64,000 bases of DNA from Candidatus Curtissbacteria bacterium (GTDB taxonomy: Bacteria > Patescibacteriota > Microgenomatia > Curtissbacterales > GWA2-41-24), in assembly GCA_016183325.1 (NCBI GenBank), contig JACPEV010000008.1, positions 472 through 64,471 of the forward strand, written 5' to 3'. The position numbers were made by a program, and so were the translations under genes. Of the stretch, positions 24,407-38,921 are shown in pieces (within the stretch, counting starts at the first letter, position 1; each line of letters begins with the position of its first letter). The notes below the pieces were generated by a model that saw only the letters and a list, made by a program, of their open reading frames with translations, was not told where the DNA came from and ran no database searches.

Positions 24407-25420
24407 TTACGAACTCTTGAATGCGAAACGAATGATTTTGTCTAAGAGCTGCGGGTAGGAAATACCATCAGCTTGCGCGGCCTTGGGCAGAAGAGACATG
24501 GGGGTTAATCCTGGAATAGTATTAACTTCTAAAACACAGACGTTATTCCCTTTTATAATCATGTCTACCCTACCGAAACCTCTACATCCAAGAGATCTAT
24601 ATGCATCAAGCGCTGCTTTTTGAGCTATCTTGGTTAATTTTTGGCTGAGCCTGGCTGGGACGATTTCTTTAGTTTGATTGTCGAAGTATTTGGCATTGTA
24701 ATCAAAAAATTGGCGAGTTGGCACAATTTCAACTAAGGGCAAAGCCGTTGGATTATCGTTACCAAGGATTGATCCGGTGAGTTCTATGCCTTTTATATAT
24801 TCCTCGACCAGAGCAAAACGACTAAAGCTTAAGGCTATCTCTAGAGCTTGTTTTAACTCTTTTCTTTTATTCACTTTGGAAGATCCAATTGATGATCCCT
24901 GGTTAGACGGTTTAATAAAAAGAGGGAAAGAAAATTGTCTCAAGACTTTTTTAAGACTGTTACCTTTTTCGAAAACGAGATATCGCGGGGTTTCCAAGCC
25001 TGCCTGAGTAAACAATTTCCTTGAGTAAATTTTGTCCATTCCGAGAGCTGAGGCTAAAACCCCGGATCCAGTGTAAGGAATGTCTATCAATTCTAAAAAT
25101 CCTTGAATAGTTCCATCTTCCCCAAAGTGTCCATGCATAGCTATAAAAAACAATTGACAATTGACAATTGACAATTGACCAAAATGATAATTTACTTTAC
25201 CAAGAATAAAAGATTTTCCATCTTTTGAAATTACAATGGGTAAAACTTCGTATTTTTGGAGATCCAAATTCTTGACCACTTCCCTACCCGAAATCAGAGA
25301 GATTTCATGTTCGGGAGATTTGCCGCCCATTAAAACGGCAACTTTGATTTTGCCAGTTTTGTTATTTTGTTTCTTTGATTTTGGCTCCAATGGTTGAGAG
25401 CCTTTCGACGATGTTTTCAT
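24407..25420 (-). CDS. ddl: D-alanine--D-alanine ligase
   Basis: ATP-grasp signature, EHEISLISGREV, C-terminal NTIPG. It contains an in-frame (caattgaca)x4 insertion, see 25151-25180. Confidence 0.85.
   Translation of the reverse strand: MKTSSKGSQPLEPKSKKQNNKTGKIKVAVLMGGKSPEHEISLISGREVVKNLDLQKYEVLPIVISKDGKSFILGKVNYHFGQLSIVNCQLFFIAMHGHFGEDGTIQGFLELIDIPYTGSGVLASALGMDKIYSRKLFTQAGLETPRYLVFEKGNSLKKVLRQFSFPLFIKPSNQGSSIGSSKVNKRKELKQALEIALSFSRFALVEEYIKGIELTGSILGNDNPTALPLVEIVPTRQFFDYNAKYFDNQTKEIVPARLSQKLTKIAQKAALDAYRSLGCRGFGRVDMIIKGNNVCVLEVNTIPGLTPMSLLPKAAQADGISYPQLLDKIIRFAFKSS
25151..25180 (+). repeat. tandem nonamer (CAATTGACA)x3.3 inside the ddl coding sequence
   Basis: Read directly. In frame, it encodes …QLSIVNCQLFF… just before the conserved HG.FGEDG of Ddl. 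Confidence 0.6.
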
Positions 25421-26615
25421 ATCCCCTCTCTATTAATTCCGCTCTTTCTATGCGGCTTTCCCCTTGTGCAGCCAAAGCTGCTATAACAAGTGCAATGCCT
25501 GCCCTGATGTCTGGTGTGTCAAGTCTCTGGCTGTGAAGCTTAGTGGGGCCGTAAACTAAAACACGATGAGGATCAGCAATTTCTACTTTTGCGCCCATAG
25601 ATAGAAGTTTATCAACGAAAAACATACGTGATTCGTACATCCAATCATGAAGTATAGTGACACCTTCCGCTTGAGTTGCCAAAACAATCATTGGTGCCAT
25701 TAAGTCCGTTGGGAATCCGGGCCAAACATCAGTGACAACTTTTTCGATCGCAGTTAATTTGCCATCTCTGACTGTAAGAGTGTCTTGCTCGGTTTTGAAG
25801 TTAACACCAAATCTTGAAAGGGTTAAAAGGATCATATCTAGATCTTCTTCGATTACTGGAGAAATGTTGACTGTACCCTTAGTCACGGCAGCAAGAATCG
25901 CAAAAGTTCCGACTTCGATGTGATCAGGGCGGATAGTATGACGAGTTCCAGAAAGTTCATCAATACCCGTGATGGTAAGGATATTAGAACCAACCCCAGA
26001 TATAAGAGCTCCCATTTTAATTAAAAAATTACATAGATCGACAACATGCGGCTCTGAGGCAGCACGTTTAATAACAGTCTGCCCCTCTGCAAGACAAGCG
26101 GCCATGATGGCATTTTCGGTTGCGGTAACTGACGATTCCTGCAAAAAAATGTTTGCTCCCTTAAGTTTTCGAGCTTCCGCAACATAATAATCATCTTCCT
26201 TTTTAACAACTGCTCCGAGAGCTTCAAGCGCTTGAACATGGGTTTCAAGAGGACGTCTGCCGATTATATCTCCGCCAGGGTATCCCATTTTAACTTCACC
26301 AATCCTTGCTAACATCGGGCCAAGAAGAAGAACGGAGGCTCTTAACTTTTCTGTTAATTGGGAAGGGAATTGAGTCGCCTTGATTTTTTGGCAATCGACA
26401 GTTAAAGTCGATTTATCTTGAGTAATTTTTGCGCCGCAAGCTTCGAGCAGCTGAATCATCACGGAAACGTCGGAAATATTGGGAACGTTTTCTACTATAC
26501 AGGTGTCTTTGGTTAAAAGACAGGCAGTCATAATGGGAAGTACTGAGTTTTTATTACCAGCGATTTTGATGTCTCCTGAAAGCCTGTTTGCACCGATTAC
26601 TTCAAAGGTAGCCAT
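25362..26615 (-). CDS. murA: UDP-GlcNAc 1-carboxyvinyltransferase MurA
   Basis: 417 aa, EPSP-synthase-like fold, catalytic Cys region (…RPLE…). Confidence 0.9.
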   Translation of the reverse strand: MATFEVIGANRLSGDIKIAGNKNSVLPIMTACLLTKDTCIVENVPNISDVSVMIQLLEACGAKITQDKSTLTVDCQKIKATQFPSQLTEKLRASVLLLGPMLARIGEVKMGYPGGDIIGRRPLETHVQALEALGAVVKKEDDYYVAEARKLKGANIFLQESSVTATENAIMAACLAEGQTVIKRAASEPHVVDLCNFLIKMGALISGVGSNILTITGIDELSGTRHTIRPDHIEVGTFAILAAVTKGTVNISPVIEEDLDMILLTLSRFGVNFKTEQDTLTVRDGKLTAIEKVVTDVWPGFPTDLMAPMIVLATQAEGVTILHDWMYESRMFFVDKLLSMGAKVEIADPHRVLVYGPTKLHSQRLDTPDIRAGIALVIAALAAQGESRIERAELIERGYENIVERLSTIGAKIKETK

Positions 26616-26620
26616 TATAA

Positions 26621-26656
26621 AAAATTGAAAATTGAAAATTGAAAATTGAAAATTTC
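26621..26656 (+). repeat. tandem octamer (AAATTGAA)x4 in the murA-murB spacer
   Basis: Read directly. Related to the CAATTGACA repeats. Confidence 0.5.
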
Positions 26657-26662
26657 ATTAAT

Positions 26663-27664
26663 TTAATCAAAGTCTCCGATGTAAAAGATTTCTTCCTTTA
26701 GATCAAGGCCATATGTTTGTTTAGCTTTAACCTTGATTAGATTAATTAATTTTATCACGTCGGCGGCCTTTGCTTCAGCTGTATTGATTATGAAATTGGC
26801 ATGGTGCTCTGAGACTTGGGCGCCTCCAATTTTTGTACCTTTAAGGCCAAGGCTCTCGATAATATAACCAGTAGACGTCGTTAAATTGGGTGTTGACAGC
26901 CTGATCGCATCTTTGTGGTTAATATTCCTAAAGGTACATCCAGAACAGGCAATTCCAATTGGTTGTTCTGCATTTCTTCGCTTGACTCCTTCCATGGCTT
27001 TTTGCCAAAGAACTGCCTTATCTTGAGCGGCGTCTAGCCTGAAGGTAGCATCCAAGACAATTTCGTCAGTATCTTGTATCGTTGAGTGGTCGTATGAAAA
27101 TTTGAAATAATCTTGAGCAACATTTTTTTTCTGGCCATTTTTAGGATCGAAAAGTGTTGCAGATACTAGGCGATTGCCAAGAAATTCTGCTCTTTCCACT
27201 TCAAAGTGTGCATTGATCTTTAAACCGCCGCCAACTGTTCCTGGAACAGAAAGTAAAAATTCCAGGCCTTCCAGGCCTTGGTCGATAGTAAATCTGGCAA
27301 GTTGATTCATGGGGGTACCGGAAGCTGTCCAAACCAGAGCGCTTTTAATACCTTGGCCATTTTTATTAATAGTACCTTTAATACCAACGAGTTTAACTTG
27401 AGCTGCCCTATTTTTGACAACAAGACCATCGAATCCTTTGTCACTGACTAAAACATTGGCTCCTCCGCCCAGAACAACAAATGGGACTTGGTACTCTAAA
27501 ACAGTTTTTAAGGCAAGTTTCAGGTCTTCGATGCTTTTGGCTTCGAATAATAACCTTGCTGGTCCACCAATTTTAAAGTAAGTATGCTTTGAAAGAGACT
27601 CGTTTTCGCGGACTCGCAGTATTCCGAGAATATTCTTTATTTCTTCTGTGATTTGCTGATCCAT
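26663..27664 (-). CDS. murB: UDP-N-acetylenolpyruvoylglucosamine reductase MurB
   Basis: FAD-binding PCMH motifs (KIGGPA…, GGGANVL). Start set at MDQQITEE; the ORF track extends the frame 20 codons further upstream. Confidence 0.8.
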   Translation of the reverse strand: MDQQITEEIKNILGILRVRENESLSKHTYFKIGGPARLLFEAKSIEDLKLALKTVLEYQVPFVVLGGGANVLVSDKGFDGLVVKNRAAQVKLVGIKGTINKNGQGIKSALVWTASGTPMNQLARFTIDQGLEGLEFLLSVPGTVGGGLKINAHFEVERAEFLGNRLVSATLFDPKNGQKKNVAQDYFKFSYDHSTIQDTDEIVLDATFRLDAAQDKAVLWQKAMEGVKRRNAEQPIGIACSGCTFRNINHKDAIRLSTPNLTTSTGYIIESLGLKGTKIGGAQVSEHHANFIINTAEAKAADVIKLINLIKVKAKQTYGLDLKEEIFYIGDFD

Positions 27665-27755
27665 CTCTTTATTATTATCCTTGACTATATGGTATCTTGC
27701 ATAACATCCCCTAGGTGCGTGCATATTTCACCCCGGGGGTGGGTTAGCTTCGCAC

Positions 27756-29843
27756 CTACGGAGTGTGGTTTTTGACTAGATCGAAAAGTTTGTAAACATC
27801 CCCGGCACCCATGGAAAGAATCACTCCAAAACCACTAAGGTGTTTAGATAGGTAACGAGCCGTTGCCTCCAATGATCCCGAGTATTGTGCCTTAGAACCG
27901 ACTGATCTGGCAAGTTTTTGGGCGAGTATGACTTTATCCCCTTTTTCCCTTGCCGGGTAGACATCGGTTATTAAGATTTGATCAACTTTGCTTTCTTTTA
28001 GGCTTTTGACGAAATCCGCAAAGAAAGTTTCGATTCTGGAAAAAGTATGGGGTTCAAAAACGAGAACCACTTTTTTATTTAGAGATTTTTCTTTTAGGGC
28101 ATTTGAGGTTTTGAGAATTGTGTATGGTTGTACAGCGTAATCATCGTAGACTCTAACTTGATTGATTGTCCCCTTATATTCCAATCGGCGACAGAGTCCA
28201 GAGAAAGATTCAACTGATTTTTTTGCAAGTTTTGGATCAATTTTAAGAATTTTAGCAACAGTCAGTGCGGCCTTTGCATTTTCTTTTCTAAAGTCGCCGA
28301 TTATGGAAAGTTTCAGTTCTGTGAAATCTTTGACCTTAACGACTCTTGTTTTTGCAGGGTCCGTCCCTTTTATTGGTGCTCTTGTCGACTCAATAAGCTC
28401 TTTTGTCGTAGGGACGGACCCTAAAATTATGGTCCCGCCTGGTTTAATATTTTCGATAAACTTTTTGTATGAGTTTATTACTGCCTCTCTTGTCTTGAAA
28501 AAATCTGGGTGATCCCAACCGATGTTGAGGATGACGGCGATGTCGGGATGATAATATAAAAAATTATCATTATATTCATCTGCTTCACAAATATAGTATT
28601 TTGACTTCCCTACTCTGAAGTTTGTCTCCCAACCGAGTACTTTGGCTCCTATTTCGCAAGTGGGATCAAGTCCTGCATCGATTAAAATTTGGGCAATCAT
28701 CGCCGTTGTGGTTGATTTACCATAGGCTCCGGCAACAGCGATGACAAATTTATTCTTTTGAAGATATTCGCCTTGGAATTTTTGCCAGCTAATAATAGGT
28801 ATTTTGCCCTTGCTGGCATAGACCAGCTCCAAATTTTGTGAATTAAATTTTTCCACTGCAGGAGAAATAACGAGAAGATCAATACCGATCAAGTGACTTC
28901 GGCTATGACCTTTGGCGATGTCGATTTTTAAATTTTGGGTATAAGGAGAAGCTGGATTTAAATCGCAACCGGTAACTTCATATCCATAACTCTTAGCAAT
29001 TGATAAAATTGCTGAAGCTCCGGCGCCAGCAGCGCCCATGATGTGGATCTTTAGCTTTTGAAGTTCAACCTCTTTGGCGCTTGAATCTCTGATCTGGCTT
29101 GTTGCGATAAGCTTATTGGCAATTTCGAGTTCTTCTGGGGTATTGATTCCATGCCATTCTGACGGATCTTCGAGTTTATAGGTTTGTACCTTATCGCCTT
29201 GATTTAGCGCAATGGAAATAAGGTCTGTTAGATATAATTCGCCAGTCACTGAAGAAGGCTTTATTTTTAGCAAATTATCACCAAGCCAGTTTTTATTAAA
29301 AAAATATAATCCGTCATTGACTTCCTTAATTTTTTTTTGAGTGGGAGAGGCGTCCTTTTCTTCAATGATTCCGAAAAGTCTGTCGTTTTTCCTAAGTATT
29401 CTGCCAAGTCCAAATGGGCTCTCTTTGTCTAAAGTGACAAATGTGATTTTCGACTTTGATCTCCGGTGGAATTCAAAAATTTTTTTAATCGTTTCAGGTT
29501 TGTAAAAGGCAGTATCGTCACCATACATAACGGCAACAATTTGAACATTTTTATCAGTTTTCCTGAGTCCAATCCTTGCGGCGTCGGCTGTTCCAGCAGG
29601 TGATTGTTGATTAGCAAAGGTGTACTGATTTCCGACCGTTTTTTTAATTTGAGATGAGTTATTTTGATTGATCACTATAATTATTTGACGGGGTCTCACT
29701 TTGTCTATAATTTCCAAAGTTCTTTTGAGTAGTGGTTTTTGGTCGACAGGGTGAAGAACCTTAGGCAAGGAAGACCTCATTCTTTTACCCTCTCCGGCTG
29801 CCAGAACTATGGCTGCAAAAGATTTCTGCGAATTATTGTTCAT
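27756..29843 (-). CDS. murC: bifunctional fusion: GlmU-type sugar-1-P uridylyltransferase N-domain + MurC UDP-MurNAc:L-Ala ligase
   Basis: Residues 1-240 read AIVLAAGEGKRMRSSLPKVLHPV…, the GlmU pyrophosphorylase domain without the LbH acetyltransferase. Residues ~260-695 carry the Mur-ligase motifs (GAAGAGASAI, AVAGAYGKSTTTAMI). Confidence 0.75.
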   Translation of the reverse strand: MNNNSQKSFAAIVLAAGEGKRMRSSLPKVLHPVDQKPLLKRTLEIIDKVRPRQIIIVINQNNSSQIKKTVGNQYTFANQQSPAGTADAARIGLRKTDKNVQIVAVMYGDDTAFYKPETIKKIFEFHRRSKSKITFVTLDKESPFGLGRILRKNDRLFGIIEEKDASPTQKKIKEVNDGLYFFNKNWLGDNLLKIKPSSVTGELYLTDLISIALNQGDKVQTYKLEDPSEWHGINTPEELEIANKLIATSQIRDSSAKEVELQKLKIHIMGAAGAGASAILSIAKSYGYEVTGCDLNPASPYTQNLKIDIAKGHSRSHLIGIDLLVISPAVEKFNSQNLELVYASKGKIPIISWQKFQGEYLQKNKFVIAVAGAYGKSTTTAMIAQILIDAGLDPTCEIGAKVLGWETNFRVGKSKYYICEADEYNDNFLYYHPDIAVILNIGWDHPDFFKTREAVINSYKKFIENIKPGGTIILGSVPTTKELIESTRAPIKGTDPAKTRVVKVKDFTELKLSIIGDFRKENAKAALTVAKILKIDPKLAKKSVESFSGLCRRLEYKGTINQVRVYDDYAVQPYTILKTSNALKEKSLNKKVVLVFEPHTFSRIETFFADFVKSLKESKVDQILITDVYPAREKGDKVILAQKLARSVGSKAQYSGSLEATARYLSKHLSGFGVILSMGAGDVYKLFDLVKNHTP

Positions 29844-31039
29844 TATTTTAATCGATTTTTAATGGCTTTTTTGACGACGGCAAATTCATTCCAGGGATAG
29901 TCTTTTTTGCCATAGGTCATTGATTTTTCATGAGATTTGCCAAAAGTTGCCACGACGTCATCTTTTTTGGCCAAGTTAATGGCAAACTGGATAGCATCTT
30001 TTCTGTCGACAATTACAAAATACCCTTGACCTTCCTTTTTACTGGTGATTCCTCTTGTTATTTGTTCACAAATCTCATCAACTTTTTCCGAACGGGGATC
30101 TTCGGCAGTAAGAACAATTATATCCGAAATCTGGTCTGCGACCTTTCCCATCAGTTGCCTCTTCGGCTTATCTCGCTCCCCTGCGGCTCCAAAAACTGCA
30201 ATAAGTTTGGATTTGTTAGATTCCAGTTGTGCTTTTAATGTTGTAAGGGCGTTTTTAAGACCGTTGGGGGTGTGGGCAAAATCAATAATAACCCTAAAAT
30301 CTTGCCCCAAGTCTACTTCATCAAGTCTCCCGATCACACCTTTGAAATTAGAAAGGGAATCTAATATTGTCTCTCTGTTAACTTTAAGCGCTTTACAAAC
30401 GGCCGTCGCCGCCAAGGCATTTGACAAATTAAACGAGCCGGGAATTTGAAGTTTGAGCGGGTATTTTTTTAAGCTGACATCAGCCTCATTGCTTTTTGCG
30501 TATGAAATAATTTGTCCGCCAACTTTATCTTTTAAAAAGAGAAAGGATTTTTTTTCATCCTTATTCAAAATTGAAATTTTGGATTTTGTGAAAAGTTTAC
30601 TCTTTGCAAGGGCATAATTTACCCAAGTTTTATGATAATCAAGATGCTCGTGAGTGATATTGGTAATAGCTCCTATTTTGAAATCCACAAAAGCTAACCT
30701 GTTTTGATCAAGTCCATGCGAAGTTGCCTCAAGAACAAAATATTGACTGTCAGATTCAACTGCCTGTTTTAGGTATTTTTGAATTTGCCATGGATCGGGA
30801 GTAGTAACATGGAAGCCTGTATCATAGATCTTATCTCCAATTTGGGCATTCACTGAGGAAATCATGGATACTTTTTTACCCGCTTGCTTCAAGATGTGGT
30901 AGATCATGTTGACAGTGGTAGTCTTGCCGTCGGTGCCGGTAACACCAATGACAGTCAATTTTTTCGAAGGGAAATTAAAATAGGCGGCAGCGACAAACGC
31001 GGTTAGTAAATGATAAATATTCTTTATCTTTTGCCACAT
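29843..31039 (-). CDS. murE: MurE-type UDP-MurNAc-dipeptide:diamino-acid ligase (short N-terminus)
   Basis: VIGVTGTDGKTTT P-loop, C-terminal GERDKPKR motif. 398 aa. Confidence 0.7.
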   Translation of the reverse strand: MWQKIKNIYHLLTAFVAAAYFNFPSKKLTVIGVTGTDGKTTTVNMIYHILKQAGKKVSMISSVNAQIGDKIYDTGFHVTTPDPWQIQKYLKQAVESDSQYFVLEATSHGLDQNRLAFVDFKIGAITNITHEHLDYHKTWVNYALAKSKLFTKSKISILNKDEKKSFLFLKDKVGGQIISYAKSNEADVSLKKYPLKLQIPGSFNLSNALAATAVCKALKVNRETILDSLSNFKGVIGRLDEVDLGQDFRVIIDFAHTPNGLKNALTTLKAQLESNKSKLIAVFGAAGERDKPKRQLMGKVADQISDIIVLTAEDPRSEKVDEICEQITRGITSKKEGQGYFVIVDRKDAIQFAINLAKKDDVVATFGKSHEKSMTYGKKDYPWNEFAVVKKAIKNRLK

Positions 31040-32017: not shown

Positions 32018-33121
32018 CTAGACAATCTTCTCCCAGGGAAAGCCGGGGCGGCCGAAGTGGCCATAGGCCGCGGTTTGGCGATAGATAGGTCTTCTTAAGT
32101 TGAGACCATCTAAAATGCCTTTGACGGAAAGTTCAAGTAGACTCCAGGCGAATTTTTCAATCTCGCCAATTGCAACTCTATTGGTACCGAATGTTTCGAC
32201 TGATTTGGAAACTGGCCTTGGTTTACCGATGACATAAGAAAGCTGGACTTCACACCTTCTGGCCAATTTTTTAGCCACAATATTTTTGGCAATAAATCTG
32301 GCAGCGTACGCTCCCGAGCGGTCGACCTTCGTTGGGTCTTTTCCGGAAAAACAGCCTCCGCCGATTCTGGCCATGGCCCCATAAGTATCAACTATGATTT
32401 TGCGGCCCGTAACGCCCGTATCAGAGGCCGGTCCACCGATTTCCCACTTACCGGTGCCGTTGCAGACAAAGTCATCAAAAGCTACATTGAAACCATATTT
32501 TCTAAGAACGGGAGTTACTACAGCTTCATAAATATCCCTGGCGACTTTTGCGCTCTTAACTTTGGGATCGTGAGGAACGGCAGTTATAACCTTGACCACT
32601 TTTTTGGGATGACTATCTTTATATTCAACTGTTACTTGGGATTTACCATCGGGCCTGAGATATTTAAGGTTTGACTGGCGGGCTTCGTCTATTGCTTTTG
32701 CAATTTCGTGGGCAAGAGTTATTGGGAGAGGCATCAACTGGGGAGTTTCTTGGCAAGCGTAACCATACATCATACCTTGATCTCCAGCGCCAAAGTTTTC
32801 AACCCCAAGCGCAATGTCCAGCGACTGTTCGTGAATGTAGACTTCTACGCTAGAATTTTTGTAATCGAAGTTATAGATCTCTTCTGTATAACCCAAATCT
32901 TTGACTACGTCTCTGGCAACTTTTTCAAAGTCTACTTTGGCTTTGGTAGTAACCTCCCCAGCTAAAACAACTTTATTAGTCGTTACTAACGTTTCTACAG
33001 CTACTCGACTGAAAGGATCTTGATTGAGACAAGCGTCCAAGATAGTATCTGATATTTGATCACAGATTTTATCGGGATGGCCAGCGCAAACCGATTCAGA
33101 GGTAAAAAGTTTATAATTCAT
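32018..33121 (-). CDS. metK: S-adenosylmethionine synthetase
   Basis: Signatures GAGDQGMMYGYA and GGGCFSGKD. 367 aa. Confidence 0.9.
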   Translation of the reverse strand: MNYKLFTSESVCAGHPDKICDQISDTILDACLNQDPFSRVAVETLVTTNKVVLAGEVTTKAKVDFEKVARDVVKDLGYTEEIYNFDYKNSSVEVYIHEQSLDIALGVENFGAGDQGMMYGYACQETPQLMPLPITLAHEIAKAIDEARQSNLKYLRPDGKSQVTVEYKDSHPKKVVKVITAVPHDPKVKSAKVARDIYEAVVTPVLRKYGFNVAFDDFVCNGTGKWEIGGPASDTGVTGRKIIVDTYGAMARIGGGCFSGKDPTKVDRSGAYAARFIAKNIVAKKLARRCEVQLSYVIGKPRPVSKSVETFGTNRVAIGEIEKFAWSLLELSVKGILDGLNLRRPIYRQTAAYGHFGRPGFPWEKIV

Positions 33122-33130
33122 AAATTAAAA

Positions 33131-33152
33131 AAACTCTCCCGAAGGAGAGTTA
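33131..33152 (-). terminator. intrinsic terminator / attenuator hairpin of the metK leader
   Basis: On the minus strand: AACUCUCC-UUCG-GGAGAGUU followed by UUUUUUAAUUU. It sits 9 nt before the metK ATG. Confidence 0.65.
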
Positions 33153-33157
33153 AAGTT

Positions 33158-33268
33158 TGTATCTTCCCCTTACGGGCTTGGATGTGGCACCTTCTTTGAC
33201 TTTTTGAGACAAAGGGTTGCCAGACGGATCATTGGGCCAAGTCCCATACCGTCATTCTCGATACTTTG
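33158..33268 (-). ncRNA. SAM-I (S-box) riboswitch aptamer controlling metK
   Basis: The minus strand reads UAUCGAGAAUGACGG…GGGACUUGGCCCAAUGAUCCGUCUGGCAACC…AAGGUGCCACAUCCAAGC…GGGGAAGAUA. This matches the S-box core elements (GGGA-CUGGCCC-AUGA-CCC-GCAACC, AAGGUGC-AA-UCC, closing P1 UAUC/GAUA). The terminator follows. Confidence 0.7.
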
Positions 33269-34956
33269 CAAATATTAAAGTTCTAACTATTAATTATCCT
33301 ACAACAGTACCTCAATTTGTTGCAAGTATCTAAAAAAGGTAACTGTTCACCGTTACTGACACAACGCATATTGTTCGAGGCTGGAAGCCGAGAACTAAAC
33401 TTCTCGCTCACGCTCGAAGAGTAATAACGTGTCAGCGATTGTGAACTCTTACTAAAAAAAGAAAGACGTCTAATCAGCTGAGCGATGAATTTTTATGTTC
33501 AATCGGGATAGAAATTTAGCCGTGGAAATAATGAACATAATATTTATTCATAGATAAATATTATCTTTCTTGTTTCACGGCCTCTAAAAAGCTTGCCGGC
33601 AGTTAAATCTGAGAGATTTTTTGCAAGATTTTTTGCTAATAATGTCTAATGCCACGGCACTTCTTATTAGATCGCAAGGGGTAAGAATGCAAATCGAAAT
33701 AATAGGGGGGTTAATTTTAAAGAAGAGGTTAGAATTAGTAATTCTCTTTGACCTAGTGGCTTGTTTTTCTTAATATTTGCCGTAAAGGTTTACGCTAATG
33801 TGCATACTGGGACATGTTTGGCAGACACACTTGATGCTACTTGGATTTTGGACCCAGACAATTACACTTCAGAAGGAACACATGTAATACGCAATTTACG
33901 ACGGTTTTTATGGTAATGAACCTAACGTTCTTAATGCAGGTGATGCCAGTTTAGGAGCTGGTGAAGTAGCGCTAGGTTCTGGGGCAGGGCAAATAGAACC
34001 TGGGCAGTTCTCGGGACCCCATTTGCCCTTCGGGGATTGAGCAGTATAGGAAGTTTCACGAGAGGTGCAATACCAAATAACTGCGGCTTAGGGCAATAAA
34101 TAGCAAAGTCGACTAAAAAATTATTAATTTTTTGTAATTATCTTGAAGATCAAATAGGAGACGCCATATTTGGCGCTTTATGGTTTTGAGTGCTAAAGGC
34201 ATATTAAAATGAGTTGAGACCGTAATAACAGGCTTAATCATCTATAAATCTAATAAGGAACAAGTCTGGATGTAACAGAGAGTTGTTTTTATAGAAAACA
34301 GCAATTTAAATCTTTTAAAACAAACATCTACGCACAGGGCGGGGCTTAAATCCAATCTAATACTATTTTTTGATAATTTCAAGCCCCCAAAAAGCATCTC
34401 AAAAAGTGTCCAGACTTTGTTAAATTTGTTTAAAGATAAATTATTATAAAATTGGGCACAAGGATTATAAAAAGCAAATTTTTAAGTGCAAAAATCATAG
34501 AATATTTAAACATTAGTTATTGAAAATCTTGAAGATAGATGTTTTTTTGCAAGAAAAGATAACCTTTTGGTAGGAGGTCGTCTAAAGAACATACGGTTTA
34601 TCTTTTGGGATTGTGGGGGGGACAAAGTCGCAGGGAAATAGTCAACGTTCTTAAAGGCAAATTTGATCTGAGCTGTTAAGGGGCATGAGTCATTTGTGAC
34701 AACTAGTATTCTGCCTGTTTTTTTAATCTTGTTCTTATAGGTATGATTTCATCGTAGGTTTTGGTAAATTTTGCTCTTTTGTGAATTTTATCGAATTTAT
34801 GGAAGATTTTCTCGAATTCTAGCAATTATAGTTAAATATTTTTTATTAACAGTATTTAAGCAATTTTTGAACTTGATTCGCCATTTTCGTGAAAATTTAT
34901 GTATTTTCACTCGTTGCTTGTCAATAAGCACATCTTTGGTATGGAACAATTTTGAA

Positions 34957-35202
34957 TTAATGGCGTTTTAGCAGAGTTTTAAGGTTTAACCTTGGTGTAG
35001 CAAAAACAAATAGGTAGAGAATTTCTAGAATACCGAGAGAGTTGACTACAAGCAAGGCTACAAACCAATATTTTTGTCTGGCGGTTGCGGCATACCACAT
35101 GGCAATACCTTTTATTGAAAGCGCCCAAATAGTTAAAAGAATTATTAAAAGGGCATTAGCGGGATCTTTTGGAAGATTGAAATAGTTTGAGAAGAAGCTC
35201 AT
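34957..35202 (-). CDS. small two-TM membrane protein downstream of ftsI
   Basis: 81 aa with the conserved-looking motif WALSIKGIAMWYAA…KYWF. Family not recognised. Confidence 0.4.
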   Translation of the reverse strand: MSFFSNYFNLPKDPANALLIILLTIWALSIKGIAMWYAATARQKYWFVALLVVNSLGILEILYLFVFATPRLNLKTLLKRH

Positions 35203-35244
35203 TGATGACCATAATAGATCTTATAACTAGGATTTTGCAACAGA

Positions 35245-36990
35245 CTAATTCTTGGAGGGAAGAATGCCGAAATAATTAAAGAGTTCTTTGGCAACTTCAA
35301 AGAAAGTGGGAGCCGCAGTTTCTGAGCCGAAGGGAGATGAAGTTGGTTCTGTGAAACGAACTAACATAACAAATCTAGGGTCATCGGCAGGAACGAATCC
35401 AACGAAGCTAGTAATTGTTTTATTGGGGTCATAATGTCCAGCCACAGGGATTTGAGCAGTTCCTGTTTTACCGGCGATTCTGAAACCTTTCGGGGCAAAA
35501 GCTTTTGCTTCACCATTTTGGACCGCATTGACCATCATTTCAGTCATTAGAGTAGCGGCTTGTGGCGAAATTACTTGTCTTATTTGATTAGGTTTGACTT
35601 CTTCAGTTTTTTTGCCGTCTTCGATTCTTGCGACGACTTTAGGAGTGATAAGTTTGCCGTGATTAGCAATAGTGGCGACTGCCTGAACCATTTGGATTGG
35701 AGTAACTGCTATGCCCTGGCCAAAAGAAGCTGTAGCAAGATCAATCGGTTTCCAATCTTTTTTGGCACGGACAAAACCTGTTGATTCTCCCTGAAGATCG
35801 ATTCCTGTTTCCTTGCCAAAACCAAACTTGGAGATATAATCGTAAAATTTGTCTACTTGAAGTTTAGCCGCAACATAGGTCATACCAACATTATCTGAAT
35901 GCTGGATGATTTCTGTCATAGTAGAATTTGGGTAGTATTTTTTATTCCAAGTGGAAATTTCAAAACCTCCAATCTGTCTTGCACCTGAACAATCCTCACA
36001 TCTGGTTTGAGGATCTACCAGTCCAAGATCAAGTGCAGCGGACATGGCTATTAACTTAAATGTAGATCCAGGTTCATATGTTTCTGCAACCGCTGGGTTT
36101 TTATAAAGGTTTTCATTATATTCAGAGTACAAAGCTGGCTGATAGGTCGGGCTGTTTGCCATTGCCAAAATGTGCCCATTTTTGGGGTCTGAGATGATAA
36201 TTGTGCCGCCTTTGGCATCATATTTTTCAATCGCAAGTCTTAATTTTTCCTCAACCATAAACTGAATTGATCTGTCAATCGTAAGGTGAAGCGAAGTTCC
36301 TTTTTGAGGCTGGTGGGGCCGAAATTTTCCAATCAGGATCGGGAACCCGAAAGGGTCGATAATTTTACCTGATTTACCAGGTTTACCTCTGAGTCTGTGA
36401 TCATAGTAACCTTCAAGGCCAAAATAGCCAGTATCTTCTCCAAATTTGTCCGAGCCTACAAACCCTATGACGTGGGCGGCTAGTGACGCCTCTGGGTAGA
36501 ATCGTTTATCATCTCGTTCAAATCCCAAACCGTTAATTTTAGTATCTTCGATTTTATATCTTGTTTGACGAGGTACTTTTCTGGCGAGTTGGATCCAGAA
36601 AAAGTTTTTGTTTGCTAGTTTAGCCGTTAAAGATTCTTCTTTGGTTTTGATCTCTTCTTCTTTTTGTTGCTTTTCATCAGCTGAGAGCCGGGCTTCCCTC
36701 GTTGAATATTTTTCTGATATTAGAAAGGGAGCAAGTATTCTCGCAAGATCTTTTGGGTCTTTATCAATTTCCCGGGGGTGTGCATAAAGGAGTGATGCAT
36801 TTTGATTGGTAACAATTGGAAAATTGTCAGCCGTATAAATTTCCCCACGAGTGGCTGGAAGAGTATCTGATGAAACATCTGCTCCAAAATTCCCCTCTAT
36901 TTTGGCAACAAATTGCCAGTAAAATAGTCTTAGAATTATAATAGCCGCTAATAAAAAAACACAGAGTTGGAATATGCGAAATCGGTCCAT
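35245..36990 (-). CDS. ftsI: class B penicillin-binding protein / FtsI transpeptidase
   Basis: Motifs STFK (PGSTFKL), SDN (HSDN) and KTGT (GKTGTAQ). N-terminal TM segment. 581 aa. Confidence 0.9.
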   Translation of the reverse strand: MDRFRIFQLCVFLLAAIIILRLFYWQFVAKIEGNFGADVSSDTLPATRGEIYTADNFPIVTNQNASLLYAHPREIDKDPKDLARILAPFLISEKYSTREARLSADEKQQKEEEIKTKEESLTAKLANKNFFWIQLARKVPRQTRYKIEDTKINGLGFERDDKRFYPEASLAAHVIGFVGSDKFGEDTGYFGLEGYYDHRLRGKPGKSGKIIDPFGFPILIGKFRPHQPQKGTSLHLTIDRSIQFMVEEKLRLAIEKYDAKGGTIIISDPKNGHILAMANSPTYQPALYSEYNENLYKNPAVAETYEPGSTFKLIAMSAALDLGLVDPQTRCEDCSGARQIGGFEISTWNKKYYPNSTMTEIIQHSDNVGMTYVAAKLQVDKFYDYISKFGFGKETGIDLQGESTGFVRAKKDWKPIDLATASFGQGIAVTPIQMVQAVATIANHGKLITPKVVARIEDGKKTEEVKPNQIRQVISPQAATLMTEMMVNAVQNGEAKAFAPKGFRIAGKTGTAQIPVAGHYDPNKTITSFVGFVPADDPRFVMLVRFTEPTSSPFGSETAAPTFFEVAKELFNYFGILPSKN

Positions 36991-37062
36991 TAGAAATTTT
37001 CCCCAAACAGTTTAGATGCGACTATGTTTAGTTTACCAAATTACTAGGGGGTATTTATTTTT

Positions 37063-37374
37063 TCAGTTTTTTTCAAAACCTAGAGTTTTTGCCTTCTCTT
37101 TTAGAGTTTTGAACGATGATTGTTGGGTTATCTGCACTTTCAGATTAATGTTTTCTATTTCGAGTTTTTCAATTTCCTGATCAATTTGTGATATTTTTTG
37201 GCCATCTGTGGCAAGACTTGCGGCAAAAACCATTTGGGTAGCTAAAACTACCAAGATAATAATTGCAGTAACAACTAAAACTTTGACCTTAACTCTTCCG
37301 ATAAGGTTAATATTTTGATTATTATTCTTAATTTTAAAAGCAAAGTTTTTATCGAAAACTGATATGGGCAGCAT
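37063..37374 (-). CDS. ftsL: FtsL-type septum-formation initiator
   Basis: 103 aa with a TM segment and a coiled coil (EIEKLEIENINLKVQITQ). Positioned between rsmH and ftsI. Confidence 0.6.
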   Translation of the reverse strand: MLPISVFDKNFAFKIKNNNQNINLIGRVKVKVLVVTAIIILVVLATQMVFAASLATDGQKISQIDQEIEKLEIENINLKVQITQQSSFKTLKEKAKTLGFEKN

Positions 37375-37417
37375 ATTGTCAAATTTTCAACAGGCGAAGC
37401 CTGATTGAAATTTGTAT

Positions 37418-38365
37418 TTATAATTTTTCGGCGGCCCGGAGCTTTGCGCTTCGGGAACGCGGATTATTTTCTATTTCCCAAAAGGTGGGGCCGACTGGTT
37501 TTTTAGTCAATACCTTGAGCCTTCTTTCTTTTTTGAAGAACCGTTTGACTAAACCGTCTTCAAGTGAATGAAAACTGACAATTACCAATCGGCCTCCTTT
37601 TTTTAAAAGATCTACAGTCTGCGGTAATCCTTCTTCTAAATTTAAAAGTTCGCTGTTAACCACTATCCTCAGAGCTTGAAAAATTCTAGTTTTTATCCCG
37701 ATTCCATGGCTTGCAAATTTCAACCCCCATTGACTTGGCCTTATATATTTTCCTTTTGTATCTCCTGTCGCTTCGTCTATTATTTGGGCTAATTCTTTTG
37801 TTGTTGTTATTGGTTTCACTTCACGGGCGCGACAAATAGCTTCACTAATTGTCCGACTAAACTTTTCTTGACCATACGTTTTAAAAATTTCATATAACCT
37901 CCTTTTGTCAAAATTGTTGACAATATCGTATGCTTTTACGCTTAAGCCTGGATCCATGCGCATATCTAGTGGTCCTTCGCTTGCGTAGCTAAATCCCCTT
38001 TCGGCTTTTTCGATCTGATGACTCGAAATACCAAGGTCAAATAGGATCCCAGAAACGTCGTTGAATCTGTGATCGTTGGCAATTTGACCAACGTTGGCGA
38101 AATTTCCCTGGACAAGGAATAGATTTTGACCAATTTGACAATTGACAAGAGAAGTTTCGCTCTGCGAAATTGACAATTGACATTGATTTTTAAGGTATTC
38201 GATAGCTTCGGGATCACGGTCAATTGCTAAGACTTTCGCTCCTCGTTTTAACAGCTCAAACGTGTGTCCCCCACCGCCTGCAGTCGCATCTATAATGAAA
38301 TCGCCTGGTTTAGGATTCAGGAAGCTAACAATTTCTTGTAAAAGTACGGGTGTGTGATATTTCAC
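37418..38365 (-). CDS. rsmH: 16S rRNA m4C1402 methyltransferase RsmH
   Basis: SAM motif DATAGGGGH, DLGISS, C-terminal PSRRSAKLR. It contains an in-frame CAATTGACA-repeat insertion, see 38131-38185. Confidence 0.9.
   Translation of the reverse strand: MKYHTPVLLQEIVSFLNPKPGDFIIDATAGGGGHTFELLKRGAKVLAIDRDPEAIEYLKNQCQLSISQSETSLVNCQIGQNLFLVQGNFANVGQIANDHRFNDVSGILFDLGISSHQIEKAERGFSYASEGPLDMRMDPGLSVKAYDIVNNFDKRRLYEIFKTYGQEKFSRTISEAICRAREVKPITTTKELAQIIDEATGDTKGKYIRPSQWGLKFASHGIGIKTRIFQALRIVVNSELLNLEEGLPQTVDLLKKGGRLVIVSFHSLEDGLVKRFFKKERRLKVLTKKPVGPTFWEIENNPRSRSAKLRAAEKL
38131..38185 (+). repeat. CAATTGACA-family repeats (two doublets flanking a gaagtttcgctctgcgaaa hairpin) inside the rsmH coding sequence
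   Basis: Read directly. It encodes the extra segment …NQCQLSISQSETSLVNCQIGQN… in RsmH. Confidence 0.55.
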
Positions 38366-38763
38366 TTCGTTATTTTAGACAAATTGCTTTGATACTTTTG
38401 CCAACTAGCCTCTTGCCAAATTTCGAAGTGATCACCAGCACCGATAATTACCGGCTTTGAGATCTTTGCGTATGCCAGTAAATTGCCAGGTATAACAAAC
38501 CGGCCCTGATCATCAAGATTGGTACGCTCGGCTGAGGAGAAAAAGAAGCGGCGTATAGAACGGGAACGCCTCTCGGTGAGTGCGCCAGCCAATTGCTTCG
38601 CCGACTCATTCTCCCAAGTCTTTGTGTCGAAGCCGAAAATACATTTTTCAAAACCCAAAGACAGAATAATTTCGCTTGTTGTAAGCTCATCGCGGATTTT
38701 TTTTGGTAAAGCAATTCTTCGAGATTTTAAATCAAATGAAGGTCTGTAGCTGCCCAGAAACAC
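38362..38763 (-). CDS. mraZ: transcriptional regulator MraZ
   Basis: 133 aa with a duplicated MraZ fold. 4-nt overlap with rsmH. Confidence 0.85.
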   Translation of the reverse strand: MFLGSYRPSFDLKSRRIALPKKIRDELTTSEIILSLGFEKCIFGFDTKTWENESAKQLAGALTERRSRSIRRFFFSSAERTNLDDQGRFVIPGNLLAYAKISKPVIIGAGDHFEIWQEASWQKYQSNLSKITK

Positions 38764-38889
38764 TTTTTACCCTTACTCTCTACTCCCAGGCAGCTATGTG
38801 CAATTAGGAGTACCGATAATGATTCACCAAAAATCACCATCTATTTCCATTTTTCACCATGATTTGGTTGTTGTCAAGGGGGGAAAGTA

Positions 38890-38921
38890 AACAATTAACA
38901 ATTGACAGTTAACAATTGACT
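38890..38921. promoter_or_regulatory. three direct AACAATTRAC repeats at ~10-11-nt phasing upstream of mraZ (candidate MraZ operator)
   Basis: acaattaacaattgacagttaacaattgac lies about 130 nt upstream of the mraZ start. It is the same motif as the intragenic CAATTGACA repeats. Confidence 0.4.

What the first reader, a model, noticed from the sequence alone, without database searches (positions are those of the whole stretch)
25151..38921. CAATTGACA-family tandem repeats recur in frame inside ddl and rsmH, upstream of mraZ, and as (AAATTGAA)4 between murA and murB
The nonamer (a multiple of 3) is tandemly repeated inside two essential genes, always as CAATTGACA on the plus strand, and adds extra residues. 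Ddl gains …QLSIVNCQLFF… just before its conserved HG-FGEDG. RsmH gains …NQCQLSISQSETSLVNCQIG…. Three phased copies (AACAATTRAC at ~10-11 nt spacing) lie ~130 nt upstream of mraZ, where MraZ operators are usually direct repeats. A related octamer is tandemly repeated four times in the murA-murB spacer. This could be an in-frame-tolerated simple-sequence element, as RPE-type elements insert into Rickettsia genes. It could be slipped-strand contingency sites, or internal binding sites for MraZ or another regulator spread along the operon.
Basis: seen in the sequence. Interest (0 to 1): 0.6.

Follow-up and report, generated by a model that had tools for sequence, protein, structure and literature searches.

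The report
Seven-base repeats inside cell-wall genes
The flagged "nonamer" is really a 7-base simple tandem repeat, of a kind common in tiny CPR bacteria. It sits in frame in surface loops of two conserved enzymes and stays periodic across species, and it is not the MraZ operator.

Summary
The repeats are real and non-random, but the unit is 7 bases, not 9 or 8. On the + strand they are (ACAATTG)4.3 in ddl, a split array in rsmH, an imperfect array upstream of mraZ, and (AAAATTG)4.9 between murB and murA.

The window comes from a Candidatus Curtissbacteria (CPR) genome. Period 7 is the only long repeat period enriched here and in other CPR loci.

- **ddl:** relatives with 64-75% identical Ddl keep an array at the same site. 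One is perfect but with unit CAACTGT instead of CAATTGT.
- **Periodicity:** it is retained far beyond what protein-level selection predicts (about 1e-5).
- **Census:** 47 of 120 Ddl and 36 of 120 RsmH homologs carry a heptamer-encoded peptide in the same loops, from at least 10 and 15 unit types.
- **MraZ:** the likely operator is elsewhere. Four TGGTGA boxes at 10-bp spacing overlap the mraZ promoter and are conserved in relatives; the heptamer array is not.

Best reading: slippage-born heptanucleotide simple-sequence repeats, tolerated in frame (+21 nt) in loops and homogenised in place. This is a new variant of a known kind. The RPE, contingency-locus and MraZ-site readings are not supported.

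The parts
25150..25179 (-). Perfect heptamer array inside ddl. It reads (ACAATTG)4.3 on the + strand and (CAATTGT)4.3 on the gene-sense strand. It is 30 nt long and encodes Q82-L90 (QLSIVNCQL) plus part of F91.
   Evidence: TRF gives period 7, 4.3 copies, 100% matches. Translation, codon view. It coincides with a 9-residue gap against 3r23. The AlphaFold model places it as a short helix (80-85), a loop (86-89) and the start of a strand (90-95), with pLDDT 86-89.
24407..25420 (-). ddl (D-alanine--D-alanine ligase, 337 aa). Identical to NCBI MBI2327210.1 of a Candidatus Curtissbacteria MAG.
   Evidence: NCBIfam PRK01372, E = 2.5e-101. 100% identity to P0241.
26621..26654 (-). Perfect heptamer array (AAAATTG)4.9 on the + strand, (CAATTTT)n on the sense strand. 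It fills the 47-nt murB-murA spacer and ends 5 nt before the murA ATG (26615). There is no Shine-Dalgarno sequence.
   Evidence: TRF, sequence, upstream-region listing. The spacer is not conserved in relatives.
38125..38148 (-). The half of a split CAATTGT-type array inside rsmH that lies nearer the gene's 3' end (+ strand TTGACCAATTTGACAATTGACAAG). It encodes ...LVNCQIGQ.
   Evidence: TRF gives period 7, 3.0 copies, 88%. Codon view.
38149..38167 (-). Unique segment interrupting the rsmH array (encodes SQSETS). It contains a 6-bp hairpin, TTTCGC-AGA-GCGAAA, at 38155-38169.
   Evidence: Relative L145 shows the same array-hairpin-array layout with a different unit.
38168..38186 (-). The half of the split array in rsmH that lies nearer the gene's 5' end (+ strand AATTGACAATTGACATTGA). 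It encodes NQCQLSI.
   Evidence: TRF gives period 7, 2.9 copies, 92%. Codon view. There are 16 extra residues against 1wg8.
37418..38365 (-). rsmH (16S rRNA m4C1402 methyltransferase, 315 aa). Identical to NCBI MBI2327220.1.
   Evidence: TIGR00006, E = 2.5e-81. P0121 is 100% identical.
38890..38921 (-). Imperfect heptamer array (sense strand GTCAATTGTTAACTGTCAATTGTTAATTGTT). It lies between the stop codon of a 31-aa ORF and the mraZ promoter, 13 nt upstream of the -35 box. It is found only in this genome.
   Evidence: TRF gives period 7 x4.0 (80%), or period 14 x2.1 (93%). It is absent upstream of mraZ in L145 and L147.
38824..38877 (-). Context, not part of the heptamer family. The mraZ promoter has -35 TTGACA (38877-38872), a 17-nt spacer and -10 AAAAAT (38854-38849). 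It is overlapped by four boxes at 10-bp period, TGGTGAAAAA TGGAAATAGA TGGTGATTTT TGGTGA (38859-38824). This is the likely MraZ operator.
   Evidence: Promoter scan. The pattern is unique in the window with 0 expected. It is conserved almost base for base in L145 and L147. It matches the published GTG(G/T)-box, 6-nt-spacer architecture (PMC12957436).
38362..38763 (-). mraZ (133 aa).
   Evidence: TIGR00242, E = 3e-28.
58434..58490 (.). An example of the other heptamer arrays in the window: (ATTTTCT)8.3. Others are at 16066-16097, 23113-23130, 54973-55004 and 59146-59164. All are intergenic and have different units.
   Evidence: TRF. Positions compared with the ORF list.

Best explanation
These are heptanucleotide simple-sequence repeat (SSR) arrays. 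The unit is CAATTGT on the gene-sense strand, and CAATTTT in the murB-murA spacer. They are one expression of a 7-nt-repeat-rich genome style shared by Curtissbacteria and other CPR bacteria.

**Shown**
- The period is 7.
- The arrays sit in frame in one surface loop of Ddl and one of RsmH, and in Shine-Dalgarno-less spacers.
- The same two loops carry heptamer-encoded peptides of many different units across Curtissbacteria.
- The ddl array is orthologous across species with 64-75% identical Ddl.
- It has stayed periodic while its unit changed (CAATTGT, CAACTGT, CAGTTGT).

**Inferred**
- The arrays arise by slipped-strand expansion, with the 7-nt bias already proposed for bacterial polymerases.
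- Inside genes, only in-frame products survive, and only in loops that tolerate them. A gain of 3 units is 21 nt, or 7 residues: Ddl has 29 residues between 'DG' and 'HG', against 20-22 in short forms.
- Intra-array homogenisation (slipped mispairing followed by repair or conversion, or repeated in-frame re-expansion) then keeps them periodic.
- The ddl-encoded peptide has since been built into the fold, as a short helix plus a loop before the strand that leads into HG.FGEDG. It is now also conserved as protein.
- No regulatory role is needed, and MraZ binds elsewhere.
For: - **Period 7 only.** TRF rows; exact arrays; 3 observed against 0.03 in shuffles.
- **Enrichment by clade.** Exact period-7 arrays of at least 2.7 copies: 7 in 177 kb of Curtissbacteria, 12 in 234 kb of other CPR, 1 in 382 kb of non-CPR. 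Periods 6 and 8-12 give none in CPR. Period 7 is also the top long period in 749 kb of mixed metagenome loci.
- **Orthologous ddl arrays**:
  - window: CAATTGT x4.3, perfect
  - L004: CAACTGT x4.3, perfect
  - L006 and L008: one mismatch each
  - L142: mixed C and T units
  - L141: alternating CAGTTGT and CAATTGT
  - L143: split by a 51-nt insert
  - L144: decayed DNA, but peptide QLSAIQCQLFF retained
- **Periodicity beyond protein selection.**
  - Codons for identical residues differ at 51-62% of sites outside the array and at a similar rate inside it, yet periodicity persists.
  - Under a null that conserves the protein, the probability of a perfect array given at least 3 changes is about 1e-5, and of at least 18/20 periodic matches about 0.003.
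  - Under the gene-average null, 0 of 399,294 simulated arrays stay perfect.
  - All 12 Leu codons in the six arrays are TTG or CTG, which together make up 22% of Leu codon usage.
- **Hot-spot loops.**
  - 47 of 120 Ddl and 36 of 120 RsmH homologs have a peptide of at least 9 aa that fits the translation of a tandem heptamer, always in the same loop. None of 1205 shuffled proteins does.
  - There are at least 10 and at least 15 unit classes. Many are single-substitution neighbours.
  - L011 and L012 carry a different array, (NAAAATT)5, at the ddl loop.
- **Second conserved in-frame array.** (CTACCAA)n in a tRNA synthetase gene of L145 and L147, showing synonymous decay.
- **Other CPR.** In-frame arrays occur in long ORFs of Saccharibacteria, Liptonbacteria and Taylorbacteria loci.
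- **Structure.** The model gives the array-encoded residues pLDDT 86-89.
- **Prior knowledge.** Heptamers are the commonest long SSR in bacteria and have been ascribed to polymerase slippage (Mrazek 2007, as summarised in PMC4679880 and PMC4692102).
Against: - The same unit, on the same strand, occurs at ddl, at rsmH and upstream of mraZ within 14 kb. My rough estimate for this by chance is about 0.01. Pure local slippage does not predict it, so it hints at copying between sites or at common selection.
- No copy-number polymorphism was seen. Three near-identical population sets show no length change, and six species all have 4.3 copies. So active slippage is inferred, not observed.
- It is unclear how a 4-copy array in a presumably essential gene gets homogenised without passing through frameshifted intermediates.
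- In both ddl (T/C) and rsmH (T/A), the variable unit position is the one base outside an antisense TTGACA hexamer.
Confidence: 0.62

Rival explanations
1. The arrays are cis-acting sites for a sequence-specific factor acting on DNA or on the mRNA. One version has them as clusters of -35-like TTGACA hexamers on the antisense strand. They would be distributed along the dcw operon, and selection on that site keeps them periodic.
For: - The same unit and strand occur at three or four sites of one operon.
- Periodicity is retained beyond protein-level selection.
- On the antisense strand the units read TTGACA+A (window), TTGACA+G (L004) and TTGACA+T (inferred for P0122), so only the seventh base varies.
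- Intergenic arrays often end 2-9 nt before a start codon that lacks a Shine-Dalgarno sequence. The same was reported for the TAACTGA repeats of Beggiatoaceae (PMC4679880).
Against: - The arrays upstream of mraZ and in the murB-murA spacer are not conserved in relatives.
- In L145 the ddl and rsmH units differ and lie on opposite strands.
- L141, L006 and L008 break the TTGACA hexamer in some units, and L143 and L144 let the DNA decay while keeping the peptide.
- The T/C position in ddl is also the least damaging one for the protein (Leu synonymous, Asn synonymous, Ile/Thr).
- No -10 box lies at 16-18 nt in a conserved way, and promoter-like hits are at chance level.
- The weak hairpin of the window array (-7.5 kcal/mol, z = -2.4) is lost in L004 (z = 0.1).
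Confidence: 0.13
2. The arrays are slipped-strand contingency (phase-variation) sites. Gain or loss of one 7-nt unit would switch ddl or rsmH off and on, as in neuO.
For: - A 7-nt unit shifts the reading frame with every single-unit change.
- neuO shows that heptanucleotide coding repeats can work this way (PMC13001214).
- Three independent Logan contigs of the same organism all break inside the array.
Against: - There are only 4.3 copies, and the number is the same in six species. neuO ranges from 3 to 53 copies, with 66% of genomes phase-OFF.
- Near-clonal populations show no length variant.
- The array-bearing homologs recovered read through the array in frame.
- ddl is a core cell-wall gene, not a surface or antigen gene.
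- The contig breaks fall at three different positions, in short contigs of about 1-2 kb.
Confidence: 0.07
3. The repeats are MraZ operators, or sites for another dcw regulator, spread along the operon.
Against: - The period is 7 or 14, not 10, and there is no GTG(G/T) box.
- The array is absent upstream of mraZ in L145 and L147.
- A four-box TGGTGA array at 10-bp period overlaps the promoter at 38824-38859 and is conserved in all three genomes. It matches the published consensus.
Confidence: 0.02
4. The repeats are an RPE-like mobile element inserted in frame, or simply a native loop whose repeat is a coincidence.
For: The arrays sit in frame in conserved genes, and the peptide is conserved in relatives.
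Against: - There are no terminal inverted repeats, no 100-150 bp element and no flanking duplication. The whole feature is a 30-nt head-to-tail array.
- Coincidence is excluded by the shuffles, by 0 hits in 1205 shuffled proteins, and by a nucleotide-level periodicity that protein selection cannot produce.
Confidence: 0.03

Closest known systems
Long simple sequence repeats with 7-nt units in bacteria (Mrazek, Guo and Shah 2007, as summarised in PMC4679880 and PMC4692102)
   Same: Head-to-tail heptanucleotide arrays. Period 7 predominates among long units. They are mostly intergenic. Polymerase slippage with a footprint of about 7 nt was proposed as the cause.
   Different: - Not described for CPR/Patescibacteria in any paper I could find.
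- Here the arrays sit in frame inside core enzymes, at orthologous loops.
- They stay periodic across species while the unit changes.
TAACTGA direct repeats of marine Beggiatoaceae, some Cyanobacteria and Bacteroidetes (MacGregor 2015, PMC4679880)
   Same: - Heptamer arrays of 2-6 copies.
- Often a few nucleotides upstream of start codons that lack a Shine-Dalgarno sequence.
- Occasionally inside ORFs, where the reverse orientation encodes a 7-aa periodic peptide (LSVISYQ; compare QLSIVNC here).
   Different: - That family has one dominant unit per genome, and the unit is shared across phyla. Here there are many units per genome.
- ORF copies there lie mostly at protein termini or in hypothetical proteins, not in conserved loops of Ddl or RsmH.
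- No orthologous conservation or concerted unit change was reported.
Cyanobacterial STRR heptamers (Calothrix and Nostoc; cited in PMC4692102) and the GGGNATC repeats of Xanthomonas and Nostoc
   Same: Tandem heptanucleotides that are abundant in particular lineages. Their length and sequence vary between close relatives.
   Different: The units differ (G-rich and quadruplex-forming there, A/T-rich here), the lineage differs, and those repeats are intergenic.
neuO heptanucleotide repeat (AAGACTC)n of E. coli K1 (PMC13001214)
   Same: A 7-nt unit inside a coding sequence, translated as a 7-aa periodic peptide. The gene is in frame only for certain copy numbers.
   Different: neuO is hypervariable (3-53 copies, mostly phase-OFF genomes) and is an accessory phage gene. 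Here the copy number is fixed at 4.3 across species, in a core gene.
Tandem repeats in Borg elements that create new protein regions (PMC9879509)
   Same: Perfect tandem repeats arising inside ORFs and adding new peptide segments, with independent origins at many sites.
   Different: Borg in-ORF repeat units are multiples of 3 and occur in extrachromosomal elements of archaea. Here a unit that is not a multiple of 3 is read in all three frames.
MraZ boxes (GTG(G/T) boxes with 6-nt spacers; PMC12957436)
   Same: The TGGTGA-N4 x4 array at 38824-38859 has this architecture and position.
   Different: The flagged heptamer arrays do not. They have period 7, no GTG box, and are not conserved upstream of mraZ.
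Rickettsia palindromic elements (RPE)
   Same: Extra residues are tolerated in frame inside conserved genes.
   Different: From my own knowledge, RPEs are mobile palindromic elements of about 100-150 bp. These are 20-35 nt simple repeats with no element structure.

Membership tests
Heptanucleotide simple sequence repeat (LSSR type) | Head-to-tail copies of a 7-nt unit | tested here: met
   TRF gives period 7 at 100% matches for 25150-25179 and 26621-26654, and 80-92% for the rsmH and mraZ-upstream arrays.
Heptanucleotide simple sequence repeat (LSSR type) | Arrays longer than composition predicts, with period 7 predominant among long units | tested here: met
   3 observed against 0.03 expected at period 7, and none at periods 6 or 8-12. 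The same pattern holds across CPR loci.
Heptanucleotide simple sequence repeat (LSSR type) | Length or sequence turnover between relatives (a signature of slippage) | tested here: inconclusive
   Intergenic arrays and the rsmH loop turn over completely between species. The ddl array keeps 4.3 copies in six species, and near-clonal populations show no change.
Contingency (phase-variable) locus | Copy number varies among closely related strains or cells, including out-of-frame alleles | tested here: not met
   L146, L147 and L148 differ by 1-4 SNPs in 20.9 kb with no indel. L004, L005 and L145 are identical. Array-bearing homologs read through the array in frame. Read-level data were not available.
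Contingency (phase-variable) locus | A long tract, typically many units, in an accessory or surface gene | tested here: not met
   There are 4.3 units, in ddl and rsmH.
MraZ operator | Three or four GTG(G/T)-type boxes | tested here: not met
   The sequence at 38890-38921 contains no GTG box on either strand. The boxes lie at 38824-38859 instead.
MraZ operator | 10-bp period (6-nt spacers) | tested here: not met
   The period is 7 or 14. Published architecture is in PMC12957436.
MraZ operator | Conserved at the dcw promoter in relatives | tested here: not met
   The heptamer array is absent in L145 and L147, while the TGGTGA boxes and the -35 box are conserved.
MraZ operator | Binding by MraZ | not testable with these tools
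   This needs EMSA or ChIP.
Rickettsia palindromic element (RPE)-like in-frame mobile element | A discrete element of about 100-150 bp with palindromic structure, present in many dispersed copies | tested here: not met
   The feature is a 30-nt simple array. The ddl array has only a weak hairpin, which is lost in the ortholog.
TAACTGA repeat family (Beggiatoaceae, Cyanobacteria, Bacteroidetes) | Unit TAACTGA as the dominant direct repeat of the genome | tested here: not met
   Units here are CAATTGT, CAATTTT, AGAAATT and others. One TAACTGT unit occurs within the mraZ-upstream array.
TAACTGA repeat family (Beggiatoaceae, Cyanobacteria, Bacteroidetes) | Arrays a few nucleotides upstream of start codons without a Shine-Dalgarno sequence | tested here: inconclusive
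   This holds for murA (5 nt), for the genes starting at 54963 (9 nt) and 59137 (8 nt), and for L145 (2 and 5 nt). However, spacers are short and most genes here lack a Shine-Dalgarno sequence anyway.
Cyanobacterial STRR | Heptamer tandem repeats with the STRR unit sequences, in heterocystous cyanobacteria | tested here: not met
   The organism is a Curtissbacteria and the units differ. Only the 7-nt period is shared.

The most novel reading that the evidence does not exclude
In CPR bacteria, heptamer arrays embedded in core genes would not be passive debris. A sustained process would keep them periodic over deep divergence, being either an active homogenising and re-expanding mechanism or selection on the nucleic-acid repeat itself. 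The selected feature could be, for example, clusters of TTGACA-N on the antisense strand, or a leader or mRNA element read by a lineage-specific factor. On this reading the repeats would be a lineage-wide generator of new protein loops, or a dispersed regulatory code in which units co-evolve between loci such as ddl and rsmH.
Probability: 0.2. Interest if true: 0.7.

Novelty: new variant of a known kind. Interest (0 to 1): 0.45.

Why it matters
- **A 7-nt unit read in three frames.** It shows how a repeat whose unit is not a multiple of three can still add structured residues to conserved, probably essential enzymes. Three units make one 7-residue peptide period, and each unit is read in all three frames.
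- **Concerted evolution inside a core gene.** Periodicity survives while the unit mutates, so concerted evolution appears to operate within a core gene. That makes the mutational mechanics of uncultured CPR bacteria testable from metagenome reads.
- **Annotation.** Heptamer-encoded peptides mark recurrent insertion loops in Ddl and RsmH, and the arrays break short-read assemblies.
- **MraZ.** The work corrects a tempting misreading and points to the probable MraZ operator and promoter of a CPR dcw cluster.

Tried and rejected
- **Nonamer or octamer unit.** Rejected by TRF and by exact-period scans.
- **MraZ operator.** Rejected after fetching the mraZ upstream regions of two relatives and finding the conserved TGGTGA boxes.
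- **Conserved hairpin or cruciform.** The window array folds weakly (z = -2.4), but the orthologous CAACTGT array does not (z = 0.1).
- **Antisense promoter from the TTGACA hexamers.** Promoter-like hits are at chance level, and spacing to any -10 box is not conserved.
- **Restriction-site (CAATTG) avoidance or enrichment.** 33 sites observed against 34.3 expected.
- **One heptamer family per genome.** This holds for the window (ddl, rsmH, mraZ-upstream). In the L145/L004 genome, though, seven arrays have seven different units, and the one near-match is within chance.
- **Copy-number variation.**
  - Logan contigs L001-L003 only reach the edge of the array.
  - MurA and Ddl of the window could not be looked up as exact products.
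  - Population sets showed no indels.
- **Known RNA families.** Rfam finds only a SAM riboswitch in the region.
- **Literature.** Four searches found no report of heptamer repeats in CPR.

Full report
**Observation.**
- Tandem Repeats Finder reports period 7 for every member:
  - 25150-25179: (ACAATTG)4.3, 100% matches
  - 26621-26654: (AAAATTG)4.9, 100% matches
  - 38125-38148 and 38168-38186: 88% and 92%
  - 38890-38917: 80%; read as period 14 x2.1 it scores 93%
- An exact-period scan finds four arrays of at least 2.5 copies at period 7 and none at periods 6 or 8-15.
- Allowing one mismatch in three copies gives 3 arrays at period 7, against 0.03 in Markov shuffles.
- The exact 9-mer CAATTGACA occurs 6 times, all on the + strand and all inside the dcw cluster. 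Shuffles give 0.83, and 0 of 100 reach 6.
- So the feature is real and non-random. But the 'nonamer, multiple of three' and 'octamer' descriptions are wrong, and the copies upstream of mraZ are 7 or 14 nt apart, not 10-11.

**Context.**
- The genes lie on the minus strand: mraZ, rsmH, an ftsL-like gene, ftsI, metK, a murE-like gene, a glmU(N)-murC fusion, murB, murA and ddl.
- The organism is a Candidatus Curtissbacteria (CPR/Patescibacteria).
- RsmH and Ddl are identical to MBI2327220.1 and MBI2327210.1, on a 67,095-nt NCBI MAG contig.

**Are they insertions?**
- Against solved structures, Ddl has 9 extra residues exactly at 'hfgqlsivn' compared with B. anthracis 3r23.
- RsmH has 16 extra residues compared with T. 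thermophilus 1wg8.
- Array-bearing Ddl proteins have 29 residues between the conserved 'DG' and 'HG'. L010, P0117 and B. anthracis 3r23 have 20-21, as does E. coli DdlB (my recollection of its sequence).
- Removing one 7-residue period (QLSIVNC, 21 nt, 3 units) restores 22 residues, so a three-unit in-frame gain fits. This last step is my inference.
- An AlphaFold model places the array-encoded residues as a short helix (80-85), a loop (86-89) and the start of the strand leading into HG.FGEDG, with pLDDT 86-89. The alignment behind the model consisted of array-bearing sequences.

**Relatives: ddl.**
- Ddl homologs at 64-75% identity keep the peptide QLS[IT]VNCQLFF.
- Their DNA is the key result:
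  - L004 has a perfect (CAACTGT)4.3 where the window has a perfect (CAATTGT)4.3, so the same unit position differs in all four copies.
  - L006 and L008 have one mismatch each.
  - L142 mixes C and T units.
  - L141 alternates CAGTTGT and CAATTGT.
  - L143 has the array split by a 51-nt insert.
  - L144 has lost the DNA periodicity (6/20) but keeps QLSAIQCQLFF.
  - L010 has no array.
  - L011 and L012 carry a different heptamer array, (NAAAATT)5 encoding NLKFKIENLK, in the same loop.
- Outside the array, 51-62% of codons for identical residues differ between these genes. Inside it the rate is similar, yet periodicity persists.
- If only synonymous changes and Ile-to-Thr are allowed, at the gene's own rate and codon usage, a perfect array after at least 3 changes has probability about 1e-5. 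A score of at least 18/20 has probability about 0.003.
- With average amino-acid replacement also allowed, 0 of 399,294 simulated arrays stay perfect.
- All 12 Leu codons in the six arrays are TTG or CTG, which together make up 22% of Leu usage.
- Protein-level selection therefore explains the peptide but not the nucleotide periodicity.

**Relatives: rsmH and a census.**
- The RsmH loop varies greatly in length, and many Curtissbacteria have no insert there.
- I tested each homolog for a stretch of at least 9 residues that fits the translation of some tandem heptamer with at most one mismatch. The result was 47 of 120 Ddl, 36 of 120 RsmH and 0 of 1205 shuffled proteins.
- Every hit lies in the same loop of its protein.
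- There are at least 10 unit classes in Ddl and at least 15 in RsmH. Many are single-substitution neighbours, for example AAAAGTC, AAATGTC, AATTGTC, AACTGTC and AGCTGTC.
- One RsmH (P0209) carries NCQLSTVNCQLSTN, the same unit class as the commonest ddl array.
- In the window and in L145, the rsmH array is split by a short segment that can form a hairpin.
- A second orthologous in-frame array, (CTACCAA)n encoding YQLLTTNYQLL, sits in a tRNA synthetase gene of L145 and L147. In one of them it shows synonymous decay.

**A lineage property.**
- Exact period-7 arrays of at least 2.7 copies number 7 in 177 kb of Curtissbacteria loci, 12 in 234 kb of other CPR loci and 1 in 382 kb of non-CPR loci. 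Periods 6 and 8-12 give none in CPR.
- In 749 kb of mixed metagenome ddl loci, period 7 is still the commonest long period.
- In-frame arrays in long ORFs also occur in Saccharibacteria, Liptonbacteria and Taylorbacteria loci.
- Intergenic arrays in the window, and in L145 and L004, often end 2-9 nt before a start codon. But most genes here lack a Shine-Dalgarno sequence and spacers are short, so I do not read a function into this.

**MraZ.**
- Upstream of mraZ, the window, L145 and L147 share a -35 TTGACA, a 17-nt spacer and a -10 AAAAAT.
- These are overlapped by TGGTGA-N4 repeated four times at a 10-bp period. In the window the boxes lie at 38824-38859, and the pattern is unique there.
- This matches the published architecture of GTG(G/T) boxes with 6-nt spacers (PMC12957436).
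- The heptamer array at 38890-38921 lies 13 nt upstream of the -35 box and is missing in both relatives.
- The MraZ-site reading of the flagged repeats is therefore not supported.

**Other rivals.**
- Contingency switching is unlikely:
  - The ddl array has 4.3 copies in six species.
  - There are no indels among near-clonal population sequences.
  - The contrast with neuO is sharp: 3-53 copies, and 66% of genomes phase-OFF.
- Three Logan contigs do break inside the array, but at three different positions and in short contigs of about 1-2 kb.
- A conserved secondary structure is excluded, because the weak hairpin of the palindromic CAAUUG array (z = -2.4) is lost in the CAACUGU ortholog (z = 0.1).
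- CAATTG itself is neither avoided nor enriched (33 observed, 34.3 expected).
- A cis-element reading is not excluded. Three points count for it:
  - The same unit on the same strand occurs at ddl, at rsmH and upstream of mraZ.
  - Periodicity is retained.
  - The variable base is the one outside an antisense TTGACA hexamer.
- Three points count against it:
  - The intergenic members are not conserved.
  - In L145 the ddl and rsmH units differ.
  - For ddl, the T/C position is also the least damaging one for the protein.

**Comparison with what is known.**
- Heptamers are the commonest long simple-sequence repeat in bacteria. Their excess has been attributed to polymerase slippage over a segment of about 7 nt (Mrazek 2007, as summarised in PMC4679880 and PMC4692102).
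- The TAACTGA repeats of Beggiatoaceae lie just upstream of start codons and, in reverse orientation, encode LSVISYQ periods inside a few ORFs.
- I found no paper linking such repeats to CPR bacteria.
- What differs here is the setting: arrays in frame in conserved loops of core enzymes, orthologous across species, with the unit changing while periodicity is kept.

**Verdict.**
- These are slippage-type heptanucleotide repeats, tolerated in frame in loops and homogenised in place. They are a new variant of a known kind.
- Interest is moderate, at 0.45.
- It would rise if read-level or genome-wide data showed active homogenisation, or co-variation of units between loci.

Noticed in passing
window 38824-38877 (minus strand): Probable mraZ promoter (-35 TTGACA, 17-nt spacer, -10 AAAAAT), overlapped by four TGGTGA boxes at 10-bp period. 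It is conserved almost base for base in L145 and L147, and is a candidate MraZ operator for a CPR dcw cluster.
   Followed up: partly
window 38934-39029 (minus strand): A 31-aa hydrophobic ORF (MTDLTKQILTIIGILVTLIVLISLLIFQITL). Its ATG overlaps the TGA stop of the purF-like gene (ATGA). L147 has a homolog, MTDFQKQIFTIIGILVGVLVLISLIIFQITL, in the same position.
   Followed up: partly
window 33156-33267 (minus strand): A SAM riboswitch (RF00162, 44.7 bits) upstream of metK. In Curtissbacteria, metK sits inside the dcw cluster, at different positions in different genomes.
   Followed up: partly
window 33270-34950: About 1.7 kb inside the dcw cluster with no ORF longer than 66 aa. This is odd for a compact CPR genome. 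There is no credible Rfam match up to E = 1 (only weak microRNA-family hits far below threshold) and no phage DNA match. The equivalent gap in L147 is about 0.5 kb.
   Followed up: partly
window 38149-38169; L145 about 10206-10225; L143 within ddl: Heptamer arrays are themselves interrupted by short unique inserts. In rsmH of the window the insert contains the hairpin TTTCGC-AGA-GCGAAA. In L145 it contains CCTGCC...GGCAGG. In ddl of L143 it is 51 nt long. P0008 and P0124 look similar at the protein level.
   Followed up: partly
L145 6496-6525 and L147 3777-3808: An orthologous in-frame (CTACCAA)n array encoding YQLLTTNYQLL, near the C-terminus of a class II tRNA synthetase. Periodicity is 92% in L147 and 73% in L145, with synonymous decay.
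   Followed up: partly
window 16066-16097, 23113-23130, 54973-55004, 58434-58490, 59146-59164: Further intergenic heptamer arrays with other units (GAAATT-, TTCGATA, GTATCAA, ATTTTCT x8.3, AATTTCT). Several end 8-9 nt before a start codon.
   Followed up: no
window 27756-29843 (minus strand): A fusion of the GlmU N-terminal (uridyltransferase) domain to MurC, 695 aa. It is conserved in all Curtissbacteria loci seen (665-692 aa). The adjacent murE-like gene matches its family model only from position 71 onward.
   Followed up: no
whole window (start-codon contexts): Most genes lack a Shine-Dalgarno sequence. Several have TTGACA...TATAAT-like boxes ending a few nucleotides before the start codon, which suggests many leaderless or short-leader mRNAs.
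   Followed up: no
L001-L003 (Logan contigs from SRR12113384, SRR12113383 and SRR12113428): Three independent short-read assemblies of the same organism all end inside the ddl array, and the gene is then called from M95. With k = 31, a 30-nt array should not break the assembly graph by itself, so low coverage or length heterogeneity is possible.
   Followed up: partly
L011, L016, L019 and L051 (record titles): MAG records titled 'uncultured Gammaproteobacteria' encode Ddl proteins that are closest to CPR ones, and L011 also shares the dcw gene order of Curtissbacteria. The taxonomic labels of these bins look wrong.
   Followed up: no
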